DNA of 64,000 nt from the human T2T-CHM13v2.0 reference genome, Homo sapiens, in the NCBI RefSeq assembly GCF_009914755.1, contig NC_060946.1. One strand, 5' to 3'. A program made the translations under genes and the position numbers. This document shows, piece by piece, positions 39,461-42,991 of the stretch. Under the pieces are notes generated by a model. The model did not search any database, was not told the origin of the DNA, and was given only the letters and a program-made list of their open reading frames with translations. Positions within the stretch are counted from its first letter, which is position 1. Every line of letters begins with the position of its first letter.

Positions 39461-40449
39461 AGTAAAATTTAAAAATTAAATAAAATAATTATTAAATGAT
39501 GCTTGTAAAAGTAGGTAAATAGATGCAAGTTTCACGGAAGAAAGGGTGGATCTGAGGAGATCCTGAAGGATGAGACCAAGTCCAGCAGAGTGAAGAGGAA
39601 AGAAAGGAAATGGCGAGAATTCACATGAGCAAAGGGGGAATCAGATAGCGTGCCCAGTGCCGAGCCCTGCCTCTGTGGAAGCGTTGGGGGAGGGAGAAAA
39701 GCCTAGCAACCTTGCCAGAGCTCAGACCCGCCCTACTGAGGGGACACTCACAGGTGAGCAGGTGTTCACAGGTGAGGACACTCCACGGGGGAGCAGCACA
39801 GGAGCCGGGAGCTGCTCTGGGAAGAGCTGAGGCGCCAGAGCTCCACAGTCGCAGACTCAAACCGGAGACCTCACCAGACCCTGGCTCGGGCAAGCTTCCT
39901 CAGGCTACATTTCCCCACCACAAAACAAAGATATATTAGTATGTGCCTCTTATGGATGTAATGATTTTGAGGTGAGGTTCAAATAAACAACCAACCTGAA
40001 ATGCCTGGGAGAGTGTCCAACTGAGAGCCAATACTCAAAGAGTGATATAATAATTACCACAACCACTAATGCCCCACCGAGCCGCTGAAAGAAAGGCCGG
40101 TTCCACACTTTAGCTCACCTTCCTCAAACAGATGTGGCCACCAAACAGTTTGACGTAGGATATATGGAAAGCATACTAAAGGAGCTCGAGGGAAGTTAGG
40201 CGCTTTTAGATTAGCATGGGGCGACAAACTTTAAACATGCCTTGTGACCAAAAACTATGAATTCAACATTTTAAATAGATTTGTATTTTATTAACTACAA
40301 ATAAATGGTCTCATGGGTAAATTAACCAATGCAAAAAATGGTCAGTTTTTAAAGACTTTATAAACAAAATTATCCCCCAACACACAAAGTCAAAAATATG
40401 TAAAATTCAATGACTTATTAAGAACATTCTTTAACTTTCTCCAGAAGAC

Positions 40450-40743
40450 TTTTTTTTTTCTTTTTGACATGGAGTCTCACTCTGTCACCCAGGCTGGAGT
40501 GCAGTAGCAGGATCTCAGCTCACTGCAACCTCCACCTCCCGGGTTCAAGCAATTCTGCCTCAGCCTCCCGAGTAGCTGGGATTACAGGCGTCCGCCACCA
40601 CACCCAGCTAATTTTTTGTATTTTTAGTAGAGACAGGGTTTCACTATATTGGCCAGGCTGGTCTTGAACTCCTGACCTCGTGATCCACCTGCCTCGGCCT
40701 CCCAAAGTGCTGGGATTACAGGCATGAGCCACTGCACCCGGCC
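40450..40743 (-). mobile_element. AluS (Sg-like left arm); proposed left inversion partner
   Basis: Reverse dimer; its tail-side flank tccagaagacttttt has no matching copy at its own 5' end. Confidence 0.92.
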
Positions 40744-41694
40744 AAATGAGGACTCTTGTAGAAATACATGTGCTTTTCTCTAAGGGACGAGAAAGAAATG
40801 TAAAATGAGCAGTTTGTCCGCAGATCGTGCTTCTTGGGTTGGTCTGGAGCCGACAGGCGTTGTGGAATGACAGTGTCCATCTGGAGATTAAAATGAGAAC
40901 TCCTTTGTTCTAGGCAAGACACATGCTTTTTTTTCTCTTCCTTCCTTCTTCCTTCTTCCCTGCCACCTTTATTCCTTTTTTGGTTTATCTTAGAAATGAT
41001 TTAAGGCAACATGGGCCCTTGATCTGTGAGGAGGTGAGGCAGGACTGTTACTCTGTTCTGTGGAATTCTAGAAACTTATTTTGGGACTTTGGAGGTATTC
41101 GCTTTTTCCTAAGCTCTCAGAATCATTTTTGAGAAGCAGACGATGCTGCTAGCCAGAACAGCTGTGAGAAGCGCAGCGTCTAGGATGGCCTCTTTGCCGA
41201 CACCCTGGGATGGGTGCATGCTTCCTCATGTTTTAGAGAGAACTGAGGCTCTCAGCTCTCCCTGTGTGCTGGGATGCCGTCTGTGACTTGCCTGAGAAAA
41301 TACCTATGGAATGAGTGTGAGGGCCTCATGAGGTCACGTCCACGAAAGCACTGGGAGCTCGTCAGAGGAGAAGGGCACTCTGAGGCCACATAGTCGGTAA
41401 TCAGACTTCCCTTTGGTCCACATCTCTGCCCTGGCTGCCAGGATTCACAGTGTGCAGAGGGACTGGGCCGTTGCTCCAGCCCCTCCAGCAGGTTAGCAGG
41501 CTCTGTGCCACTGTCCCCAGAGAAGTCTCCCTGAGTGGGGTCTGTGGGCTCTTCTCTCGGTCCCACCTTCAACACCCACTTTTCTCAGCCTGGTGAGAAG
41601 GGAGGACAGATGGCTTCCCCTCCACTGTCCCCCGCCCATGTTGTTGAATGGGATTTGAGAATGGACGCCAGGTTCTAAATCTGCCATTCCGTCT

Positions 41695-41842
41695 GTCCTT
41701 GAGTGAGCGGCTGACCAGCTGCTGGCCCATGCTTAGAGGATCTTCGTGGTCTGCCCCAGGGCCCACTGGTCCTTGAGTGAGCGGCTGACCAGCTGCAGGG
41801 CCATGATCAGAGGATCTTCGTGATCTGCCGCAGGGCCCACTG
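41695..41842. repeat. 74-bp tandem duplication (68/74 identical)
   Basis: gtccttgagtgagcggctgaccagctgc...agggcccactg at 41695-41768 and 41769-41842. Confidence 0.95.
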
Positions 41843-42304
41843 GTTGGAGGCCCCTTTGGGAGTCAGATAACAGAACTCTGCAGTCACGGCTGTGACCGAC
41901 TCACTATGTGGCAGATGGGCTTCTGTGCTTTTTAGTTCTCACTTCCTGAGAAGTGTCAGGTTTCAGCACTAATATCATGTATACATTTTAAAAAATCCAA
42001 AATCAGAAGCAGAATTTAGTAATTCCCCACCACTTCCTATGTTCCCTCCTCTAACACCTGTAATATTCCTGGCACACAGTAGGTGCCTTAAACAGGTCCT
42101 TGAATTGGGGTTGGTGAGAAAAGGTGCTAAGTCTGTCTTTCCAAGCCATTTAATTGAGCAGCATTTTTTTTTAATGTGGAAAATTTTTTTATCTGTTACG
42201 TCTTTCCTATTATATTTATCTTGTCCTTGATTTCAGCACCCCACCCGATTTGCAGGCAGTGCTTTCTAAACTGTGCCCTGTGAGCTGTTAAAAAGTCTTC
42301 TGGA

Positions 42305-42903
42305 GGCCGGGCATAGTGGCACACACCTGTGATCCCAGCATTTTGGGAGGTCGAAGTGGGCAGATTGCTTGAGCTCAGGAGTTCGAGACCAGCCTGGGAA
42401 ACACGGCAAAACCCCGCCTCTGCCAAAAAAATTAGCTGGGCACAGTGACATATGCCTGTAAGTCCCAGCTACTCAGGTGGCTGAGGTGGGAAGACCACTT
42501 GAGCCCCAGAGGCGGAGGTCGCAGTGAGCTGAGATTGCACCACTGCACTCCAGCTTGGGCAACAGAGCAAGACCCCGTGTCAGAAAAAAAGGGGGGGGCT
42601 GGGCGCTCATGCCTTCAATCCCAGCACTTTGGGAGACTGAGGCAGGCAGATCACTTGAGGTCAGGAGTTTGAGACCAGCCTGGCCAACATGGTGAAACCC
42701 CATCTCTACTAAAATACAAAAAATTAGCTGGGCATGGTGTTGTGTGTCTGTAATCCCAGCTACTTGGGAGGCTGAGGCCTCCTCAGCCTCAGCAGGAGAA
42801 TCGCTTGAACCCGGGAGGCGGAGGTTGCAGTGAGCTATCGCACCATTGCACTCCAGCCTGGGCGACAGTGCAAGACTCCATGTCAAAACAAACAAACAAA
42901 AAA
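42305..42903 (+). mobile_element. Two tandem Alus (J-like 42305-42590, Sx-like 42596-42903); proposed right inversion partner
   Basis: Preceded by TT/aaaaagtcttctgga; the second copy has a 15-nt insertion at 42777-42791. Confidence 0.92.
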
Positions 42904-42909
42904 CCTCAT

Positions 42910-42991
42910 CATTCATCTAGCATTGACTGCATTCATCTAGCATTCATCTAGCATTCATCTAGCATACATCTAGCATTCATCTAGCATACAC
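42910..42991. repeat. 11-bp minisatellite (CATTCATCTAG)n, about 7 units
   Basis: Six cat(t/a)catctag units plus two degenerate units; abuts L2-like sequence at 42990-43350. Confidence 0.9.

What the first reader, a model, noticed from the sequence alone, without database searches (positions are those of the whole stretch)
40440..42915. ~2.2 kb Alu-mediated inversion revealed by a TSD split onto opposite strands
Seen: the + strand Alu at 42305 is preceded by TT/aaaaagtcttctgga (42290-42304), a canonical L1-endonuclease site plus a 15-bp 5' TSD. That 15-mer does not recur after either + strand Alu tail. Its exact reverse complement, tccagaagacttttt, lies at 40440-40454, next to the tail of the - strand Alu 1.9 kb away. 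Reciprocally, the 5' flank of the - strand Alu (aagagtcctcattt on -, 40744-40757) matches weakly (9/14, core cctcat) the sequence after the last + strand tail (~42898-42911). Established: target-primed reverse transcription makes direct TSDs, and inverted Alus can recombine and invert the intervening DNA. Inference: the DNA from ~40555 to ~42785 was flipped, leaving chimeric Alus. It may be polymorphic or lineage-specific, and I cannot tell whether it is already catalogued.
Basis: partly seen in the sequence, partly recalled or inferred. Interest (0 to 1): 0.85.

Follow-up and report, generated by a model that had tools for sequence, protein, structure and literature searches.

The report
Small inversion between inverted Alu repeats
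A stretch of about 2 kb inside an intron of the human MICAL3 gene seems to have been flipped by two oppositely oriented Alu repeats, which is a well-known and usually harmless kind of rearrangement.

Summary
The 15-mer AAAAAGTCTTCTGGA lies directly before the head of the + strand Alu at 42305. Its exact reverse complement lies directly after the A-tail of the - strand Alu at 40455-40743.

I paired the 5' flank of each of the 33 near-full-length Alus in the window with the 3' flank of every other. Of 1040 such pairs, this one scores highest, above every genuine direct duplication. None of the three local Alus has a direct duplication in the present arrangement.

Two small scars sit at the same Alu position. 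The left Alu lacks 3 nt at 40556|40557. The second + strand Alu has a 15-nt palindromic insertion at 42778-42792. They are the only 2 of 23 indels of 3 nt or more that fall in that part of the Alu. Flipping 40557-42777 back turns the 15-mers into direct repeats around an Alu dimer.

This matches published Alu recombination-mediated inversions (PMC2603318, PMC9675761). Three things remain open:
- The second duplication is weak (36 of 1040).
- Chimerism of the Alus could not be shown.
- No primate outgroup, pangenome or catalogue could be consulted, so age and polymorphism are unknown.

It is an ordinary new example of a known kind and of low interest.

The parts
40440..40454 (-). Copy 1 of the 15-nt target-site duplication (TSD1). 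It lies just after the A-tail of the - strand Alu and outside the flipped piece.
   Evidence: Exact match. Top of 1040 cross pairs.
40455..40743 (-). AluL. The tail is 40455-40465 and the body 40466-40743. It is the least diverged of the 33 Alus in the window.
   Evidence: Self-hit of the blastn query. Two sub-threshold Metazoa_SRP hits on -. Non-CpG differences from the window consensus: 7 of 235.
40556..40557 (.). Proposed left junction. Three nt are missing from AluL at window-consensus position 189.
   Evidence: Alignment of the 33 Alus.
40744..42289 (.). Single-copy middle segment, flipped under every version of the model. It contains the RefSeq silencer 41248-41542 named in the hub table.
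   Evidence: In the whole assembly it matches only itself, plus one 54-nt weak hit.
40746..40751 (-). Core CCTCAT of the weak second duplication (TSD2), 2 nt before the head of AluL.
   Evidence: Score 5.3, reached by 36 of 1040 cross pairs.
42290..42304 (+). Copy 2 of TSD1. It is preceded by TT and abuts the head of Alu1.
42305..42590 (+). Alu1. It has the old-type states in both head and tail, so it is not a mid-body chimera. Its tail is 7 A (42584-42590), followed by 6 extra G (42591-42596).
   Evidence: 73.7% identity to AluL. 37 of 236 non-CpG differences, with the states of the old cluster at 10 of the 32 columns shown.
42597..42903 (+). Alu2, the proposed recombination partner of AluL. 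Its tail is 42885-42903.
   Evidence: 80.6% identity to AluL. Alignment. SRP hits on +.
42778..42792 (+). 15-nt filler at the proposed right junction. The 10 nt at 42768-42777 recur as a perfect inverted copy at 42781-42790 after a 3-nt spacer.
   Evidence: Insertion at window-consensus position 186. Inverted repeat I1.
42904..42909 (+). Core CCTCAT of TSD2, just after the tail of Alu2. It abuts an 11-nt tandem array that starts at 42910.

Best explanation
An Alu-Alu mediated inversion (retrotransposon recombination-mediated inversion) took place in an intron of MICAL3, and the arrangement in this assembly is the derived one.

Inferred history:
1. An old-type Alu (Alu1) inserted on the - strand at a TT/AAAAAG site and made the 15-nt duplication.
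2. A second Alu inserted into its A-tail, giving a tail-to-head dimer enclosed by that one duplication.
3. A third Alu inserted about 1.5 kb away in the opposite orientation.
4. The two inverted AluS-type copies, about 80% identical, paired. DNA broke in both at the same Alu position (window-consensus ~186-189), and the piece between them was rejoined back to front. In present coordinates the piece is about 40557-42777, or 2.2 kb.

The flip carried Alu1 and one copy of the duplication to the far end and onto the other strand. Repair was not clean: 3 nt were lost at one junction, and a 15-nt palindromic filler was added at the other. That points to end joining or template switching rather than classical homologous crossing-over.

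What is shown: the split duplication, the orientations and the scars. What is inferred: the order of events, the exact crossover point and the repair pathway.
For: 1. The 15 of 15 match sits in inverted orientation, anchored at an Alu head on one side and an Alu tail on the other. It ranks first of 1040 cross pairs and above all 33 own-flank scores.
2. The right copy is preceded by TT and starts with AAAAA, the usual L1 endonuclease target (site read; the consensus is recalled).
3. There is no direct duplication in the present arrangement. AluL against its own flank scores 4.3 (reached by 130 of 1040). Alu1 5' flank against Alu2 3' flank scores 3.0 (543 of 1040). In contrast, 17 of 33 Alus exceed the null 95th percentile.
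4. Of 23 indels of 3 nt or more in the 33 Alus, only two fall between consensus positions 180 and 205: the 3-nt deletion in AluL (position 189) and the 15-nt insertion in Alu2 (position 186). The insertion is a perfect 10-nt inverted copy of the adjoining sequence.
5. Flipping the piece back makes the two 15-mers direct repeats about 590 bp apart, enclosing 580 bp, which is two Alus. The window holds a precedent for one duplication around an Alu dimer at 20053-20647.
6. AGAAAAAAA is shared 9 of 9 by the 5' flank of Alu2 and the tail of AluL. That fits a duplication of the nested Alu, but the sequence is low-complexity (103 of 1056 pairs reach the same score).
7. Published cases look the same.
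   - Lee et al. 2008 use mismatched duplications around inverted Alus as the criterion and report 28 Alu cases. Human-specific ones average 1934 bp (PMC2603318, sections 6, 7, 19).
   - Balachandran et al. 2022 report that 4 of 7 Alu-mediated inversions had extra deletions and 14-23 bp insertions at the breakpoints. Median Alu similarity was 81.7% and median inversion size 2454 bp (PMC9675761, passages).
Against: - No orthologous sequence from another primate, another human haplotype or GRCh38 could be examined, so the opposite orientation has never been seen directly.
- The reciprocal duplication is weak: a CCTCAT core, 9 of 14, reached by 36 of 1040 cross pairs.
- Chimerism is not demonstrable. 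The window's Alus offer no diagnostic positions in the tail that separate the two AluS-type copies.
- Head and tail divergences are, if anything, more even in the present Alus than in the restored ones. For the restored nested Alu, head against tail gives Fisher p = 0.064 at non-CpG sites. CpG sites lean the other way.
- Under this crossover point the perfect 15-nt duplication belongs to the old Alu1, and the poor second duplication belongs to an Alu whose head is the youngest in the window. That is the less expected pairing. Even so, two other old Alus in the window keep perfect 13- and 14-nt duplications.
- The scar coincidence was noticed after the fact and is only moderately unlikely, roughly a few per cent by my own estimate.
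Confidence: 0.8

Rival explanations
1. The same kind of event with a different crossover. The exchange lay within the first ~16 nt of the heads of AluL and Alu1, or at the stem-loop boundary of a hairpin formed by these head-to-head Alus. Only 40744-42304 (1.56 kb) was flipped. AluL is then an intact young Alu with its own perfect 15-nt duplication. The decayed CCTCAT duplication belongs to the old Alu1+Alu2 dimer. The flip might even have accompanied the insertion of AluL.
For: - The ages fit better. AluL is the least diverged of the 33 Alus (7 of 235 non-CpG) and Alu1 is among the most diverged (37 of 236).
- Non-CpG divergence is even within the present AluL (5 of 158 head, 2 of 77 tail) and within Alu2 (15 of 160, 5 of 77).
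- AluL and Alu1 are identical over their first 7 nt, so such a crossover would leave no trace.
Against: - It needs a crossover in about 16 of 284 aligned positions between the less similar pair (73.7% against 80.6%).
- It leaves the co-located 3-nt deletion and 15-nt palindromic insertion in AluL and Alu2 as coincidence.
- It also leaves the shared AGAAAAAAA unexplained.
- Lee et al. found no crossover hotspot along the Alu (PMC2603318, section 6).
Confidence: 0.13
2. There was no inversion. The inverted 15-mer is a chance match or a pre-existing short inverted repeat, and the three Alus simply lost or never had recognisable duplications.
For: - A third copy of the 10-nt core lies elsewhere in the window (48710-48719).
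- 16 of 33 Alus in the window also lack a clear direct duplication by my score.
- The second duplication is within the chance range.
Against: - The match is anchored to the base at both an Alu head and an Alu tail. It outranks all the other 1039 cross pairs and all 33 own-flank scores.
- It starts at a TT/AAAAA site.
- It does not extend beyond the 15 nt, so it is not a longer inverted duplication.
- The scars sit where a crossover would be.
Confidence: 0.05
3. The arrangement is an assembly error in this stretch of the T2T-CHM13 sequence.
For: None found. It is listed only because inverted repeats can mislead assemblers.
Against: - The repeats are only ~300 bp and ~80% identical.
- The piece is ~2 kb, far shorter than the long reads used for such assemblies (established knowledge).
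- The middle segment and both flanks are single copy.
Confidence: 0.01

Closest known systems
Alu recombination-mediated inversion (Alu-RMI / RRMI), Lee et al. 2008, PMC2603318
   Same: Two Alus in opposite orientation span the breakpoints. Their target-site duplications no longer match directly but match across the pair. The size of about 2 kb is in range: human-specific Alu-RMI average 1934 bp, and the median of all RRMI is 1452 bp.
   Different: Those 28 Alu cases were defined by comparing human with chimpanzee. Here only one genome was read, so the ancestral state is inferred from the duplications alone. I could not see their Table S1 (supplements closed), so I cannot say whether this locus is among them.
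Transposable-element-mediated inversions with complex breakpoints, Balachandran et al. 2022, PMC9675761
   Same: Inverted Alus about 80% identical, an inversion of about 2 kb, and a small insertion (15 nt here, 14-23 bp there) together with a deletion at the two breakpoints. The authors read this as replication-based or end-joining repair rather than classical homologous recombination.
   Different: Their events are polymorphic in living humans and were confirmed on haplotype assemblies. Their deletions were larger (38-251 bp against 3 nt here). The status of this locus in human populations is unknown.
Twin priming (5' inversion within an L1 or Alu insertion)
   Same: It gives inverted retroelement sequence in connection with target-primed reverse transcription.
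   Different: Twin priming inverts part of the element itself and leaves direct duplications at the outer ends (recalled; the abstract of PMC2837659 seen in the listing agrees). Here 1.5 kb of unique host DNA is inverted and the duplication is split onto opposite strands.

Membership tests
Alu recombination-mediated inversion (RRMI) | Two Alu elements in opposite orientation span the two breakpoints | tested here: met
   AluL on - at 40455-40743; Alu1 and Alu2 on + at 42305-42903 (blastn; flanks; SRP-like hits with strand).
Alu recombination-mediated inversion (RRMI) | The duplications of the breakpoint elements no longer match directly but match across the pair in inverted orientation | tested here: met
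   15 of 15 across the pair, first of 1040 cross pairs. Own-flank scores are 4.3 and 3.0-4.0, within the null. Flipping back restores direct repeats.
Alu recombination-mediated inversion (RRMI) | The reciprocal (second) duplication is also restored by flipping back | tested here: inconclusive
   Only a CCTCAT core, 9 of 14. Score 5.3, reached by 36 of 1040 cross pairs.
Alu recombination-mediated inversion (RRMI) | Both breakpoint elements are chimeras: the front of one and the back of the other | tested here: inconclusive
   No diagnostic columns separate the two AluS-type copies in the tail. Head/tail divergence tests are not significant either way. Alu1 is uniformly old-type, so it is not a mid-body chimera.
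Alu recombination-mediated inversion (RRMI) | The orthologous locus in an outgroup, or in another haplotype, has the opposite orientation | not testable with these tools
   No primate or human pangenome sequence is held. The own assembly has no paralogue of the segment or its flanks.
Alu-mediated inversion with complex breakpoints (TEMR) | Small insertion and/or deletion at both junctions, at homologous Alu positions | tested here: met
   A 3-nt deletion at consensus position 189 in AluL and a 15-nt palindromic insertion at position 186 in Alu2. These are the only 2 of 23 indels of 3 nt or more between positions 180 and 205. That they date from the inversion is inferred.
Alu (7SL-derived dimeric SINE inserted by L1 machinery) | Two SRP-RNA-like monomers, an A-rich tail, and a flanking duplication that starts at a TT/AAAA-like site | tested here: met
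   Each of the three repeats gives two Metazoa_SRP hits below the gathering score (31-58 bits against 70) on the stated strand. Tails and the TT/AAAAAG site were read. There are 33 near-full-length copies in the window.
Catalogued polymorphic human inversion (InvFEST, HGSVC) | Listed in a catalogue, or both orientations seen among humans | not testable with these tools
Full-text searches for MICAL3 with inversion terms gave 0 papers and 1 unrelated conference abstract book.

The most novel reading that the evidence does not exclude
The flip arose on the human lineage after the split from chimpanzee, or is still polymorphic among humans. One version of this is the variant in which it accompanied the insertion of the young AluL. 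In that case it would reverse a RefSeq-annotated silencer (41248-41542) inside a MICAL3 intron in only some genomes.
Probability: 0.1. Interest if true: 0.4.

Novelty: new member of a known kind. Interest (0 to 1): 0.2.

Why it matters
It matters little on its own. The case shows that a split target-site duplication in a single genome can reveal an old, otherwise invisible small inversion, and that small junction scars can locate its likely breakpoints. The flipped piece is intronic and carries one annotated silencer, and such elements usually work in either orientation. If the inversion proved human-specific or polymorphic, it would add one more marker of Alu-driven structural change. The inverted Alu pair itself could still affect MICAL3 pre-mRNA through double-stranded RNA, editing or back-splicing. 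That follows from general knowledge and was not tested here.

Tried and rejected
- **Paralogues as stand-in outgroups.** I searched the window's own assembly with the middle segment and both flanks. Each found only itself, plus one 54-nt weak hit on another chromosome, so no older copy exists that could show the ancestral join.
- **Supplementary tables.** I wanted Table S1 of PMC2603318.
- **Subfamily mosaic test.** I used columns with a minor state in at least 5 of the 33 Alus in the window. It shows that Alu1 belongs uniformly to the old cluster. It has no power to tell the heads and tails of AluL and Alu2 apart.
- **Divergence tests.** I compared head and tail for the present and the restored Alus: non-CpG sites, CpG sites, and a regression on the 30 other Alus. 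No comparison was significant, and the two site classes lean opposite ways.
- **Longer inverted duplication or transposon terminal repeats.** Rejected. The match ends exactly at the 15 nt and abuts an Alu head and an Alu tail.
- **Mid-body crossover between AluL and Alu1.** Rejected. Alu1 carries old-type states in both head and tail.
- **Literature.** Searches for MICAL3 with inversion terms found nothing relevant.
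Full report
**What is there**

Three repeats of about 290 nt bound the region.
- AluL lies on the - strand: head at 40743, body to 40466, tail 40455-40465.
- Alu1 lies on the + strand at 42305-42590, followed by six extra G.
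- Alu2 lies on the + strand at 42597-42903.

Each gives two sub-threshold Metazoa_SRP matches on the stated strand, as expected for the two 7SL-derived halves of an Alu. The name Alu rests on this, on the 33 near-full-length copies in the window and on general knowledge. AluL is 80.6% identical to Alu2 and 73.7% to Alu1. The 1546 nt between them (40744-42289) and both outer flanks are single copy in the assembly.

**Check of the observation**

The 15-mer AAAAAGTCTTCTGGA occurs at 42290-42304 on + and at 40440-40454 on -. There is no other match in the window at up to 2 mismatches. The right copy is preceded by TT and abuts the Alu1 head. The left copy follows the AluL tail. The similarity does not extend beyond these 15 nt on either side.

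**Is it more than chance?**

For the 33 near-full-length Alus I scored each 5' flank, anchored at the Alu head, against the 70 nt after every Alu body. Matches of A were down-weighted so that tails do not dominate.
- The 1040 non-adjacent cross pairs serve as the null: median 3.0, 95th percentile 5.0, 99th percentile 6.3.
- Own-flank scores exceed 5.0 for 17 of 33 Alus, with a maximum of 9.7, so genuine duplications are readily seen in this window.
- Alu1 5' flank against AluL 3' flank scores 10.8. It is the single highest of the 1040 and higher than any genuine duplication.
- In the present arrangement the local Alus have no direct duplication. AluL scores 4.3 (reached by 130 of 1040). Alu1 against its own tail scores 4.0 (197 of 1040). 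Alu1 against the Alu2 tail scores 3.0 (543 of 1040).
- The reciprocal pair, AluL 5' flank against Alu2 3' flank, scores only 5.3 (36 of 1040). It is suggestive at best.
- An unweighted version of the score was swamped by A-tails of nested Alus and was replaced.
- The 10-nt non-A core occurs a third time at 48710-48719, away from any Alu. I take that copy as chance.

**Scars**

I aligned the 33 Alus and listed all indels of 3 nt or more against their majority consensus of 284 positions. There are 23.
- Only two fall between consensus positions 180 and 205. One is a 3-nt deletion in AluL at position 189 (between window 40556 and 40557). The other is a 15-nt insertion in Alu2 at position 186 (window 42778-42792).
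- The insertion is palindromic. The 10 nt at 42768-42777 recur as a perfect inverted copy at 42781-42790 after a 3-nt spacer.
- From the indel density, I estimate that two given Alus carry such indels within a few positions of each other by chance only a few per cent of the time. This was noticed after the fact.

**Flipping back**

I reverse-complemented the piece between the scars in a script. The two 15-mers then become direct repeats about 590 bp apart, enclosing 580 bp, that is Alu1 plus one more Alu, both on the - strand. One duplication around an Alu dimer, with a second Alu nested in the tail of the first, has a precedent in this window. The pair at 20053-20647 is enclosed by one perfect 14-nt repeat. 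In addition, the 5' flank of Alu2 and the tail of AluL share AGAAAAAAA (9 of 9), as expected if these were the two ends of the nested Alu. This sequence is low-complexity, and 103 of 1056 pairs score as high.

**Most likely mechanism**

Inverted Alus about 80% identical paired, both were broken at the same Alu coordinate, and the intervening 2.2 kb (about 40557-42777) was rejoined in reverse. Three nt were lost at one junction, and a short fold-back or template-switch filler was added at the other. The split duplication and the scars are shown. The repair pathway is inferred.

The literature describes exactly this class.
- Lee et al. 2008 (PMC2603318; I read sections 6, 7, 15 and passages of 19) define retrotransposon recombination-mediated inversions by inverted elements at both breakpoints. 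They use mismatched duplications to identify the derived state.
- They found 28 Alu cases between human and chimpanzee, with human-specific ones averaging 1934 bp.
- Balachandran et al. 2022 (PMC9675761; passages only) found that 4 of 7 Alu-mediated inversions had extra deletions and 14-23 bp insertions at both breakpoints.
- In that study median Alu similarity was 81.7% and median inversion size 2454 bp. They attribute the events to replication-based or end-joining repair.

**What does not fit, and the main alternative**

Chimerism could not be shown.
- Thirty-two non-CpG columns have a minor state in at least 5 of the 33 Alus. On these, Alu1 carries the states of the old cluster in both head and tail, so it is not a mid-body chimera.
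- No tail column separates AluL from Alu2.
- Divergence from the window consensus gives no decision:

| Alu part | Non-CpG differences | Changed CpG sites |
|---|---|---|
| AluL head | 5 of 158 | 8 of 26 |
| AluL tail | 2 of 77 | 7 of 16 |
| Alu2 head | 15 of 160 | 13 of 26 |
| Alu2 tail | 5 of 77 | 3 of 15 |

- Non-CpG sites make the present Alus look more uniform than the restored ones (restored nested Alu, head against tail, p = 0.064). CpG sites lean the other way (present Alu2, head against tail, p = 0.097).

There is also an age mismatch. With a crossover between AluL and Alu2, the perfect 15-mer belongs to the old Alu1 (37 of 236 non-CpG differences). The poor second duplication belongs to an Alu whose head is the least diverged in the window (AluL, 7 of 235).

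The alternative is a crossover within the first ~16 nt of the heads of AluL and Alu1. These are identical for 7 nt. Only 40744-42304 would then be flipped. AluL would be an intact young Alu with its own perfect duplication, and the decayed one would belong to the old dimer.

That version fits the ages better, but it has two costs. It needs a crossover in a small fraction of the less similar pair, and it leaves the co-located scars as coincidence. I put it at about one in seven. Both versions are inversions between inverted Alus, and an outgroup would tell them apart by the spacing of the 15-mers.

**What could not be done**

No primate, GRCh38 or pangenome sequence is held by these tools. The age of the event, whether it is fixed, and whether it is already catalogued therefore remain open. 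Full-text searches for MICAL3 with inversion and Alu gave 0 papers. MICAL3 with 'inversion polymorphism' gave 1 unrelated abstract book. These searches do not cover supplementary tables.

**Verdict**

That splits into about 0.8 for the version given here and about 0.13 for the 5'-end crossover.
- It is a new example of a well-described kind, in an intron, with no evident consequence. Interest is low.

Noticed in passing
window 40466-40472, 42578-42584, 42880-42886: All three local Alus end their body in ...TGTCA instead of the usual ...TGTCTCA. Only 6 of the 33 Alus in the window do. The last 16 nt before the tail are identical in AluL and Alu2. This could be short gene conversion between neighbours, a shared source lineage, or chance. 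It is unexplained.
   Followed up: partly
window 41695-41844: A tandem duplication of a 74-nt unit, 2.0 copies, 92% matches, lies inside the flipped segment.
   Followed up: no
window 42910-42987: An 11-nt tandem array (CATTCATCTAG, 7.3 copies, 88% matches) starts directly after the CCTCAT core of the putative second duplication. Slippage here may have blurred that duplication.
   Followed up: no
window 57307-57920: A head-to-head inverted Alu pair is separated by only about 35 nt. Both members keep their own direct duplications (14 of 15 and 15 of 17). It is a closely spaced inverted pair that has not rearranged.
   Followed up: partly
window 20053-20647: A 5'-truncated old Alu and a second Alu nested in its A-tail are enclosed by one perfect 14-nt duplication. 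I used this pair as the precedent for a duplication around a dimer.
   Followed up: partly
window 40486-40610, 42502-42561, 42643-42703, 42725-42864: Sub-threshold Rfam matches to mir-1268, mir-3135 and mir-1285 lie inside the Alus (all below the gathering scores). These microRNA families evidently resemble Alu sequence, and the matches are not evidence of microRNA genes here.
   Followed up: no
window 42591-42596: Six G that are not part of either Alu lie between the short A-tail of Alu1 and the head of Alu2. Alu2 also lacks 6 nt near its 5' end.
   Followed up: no
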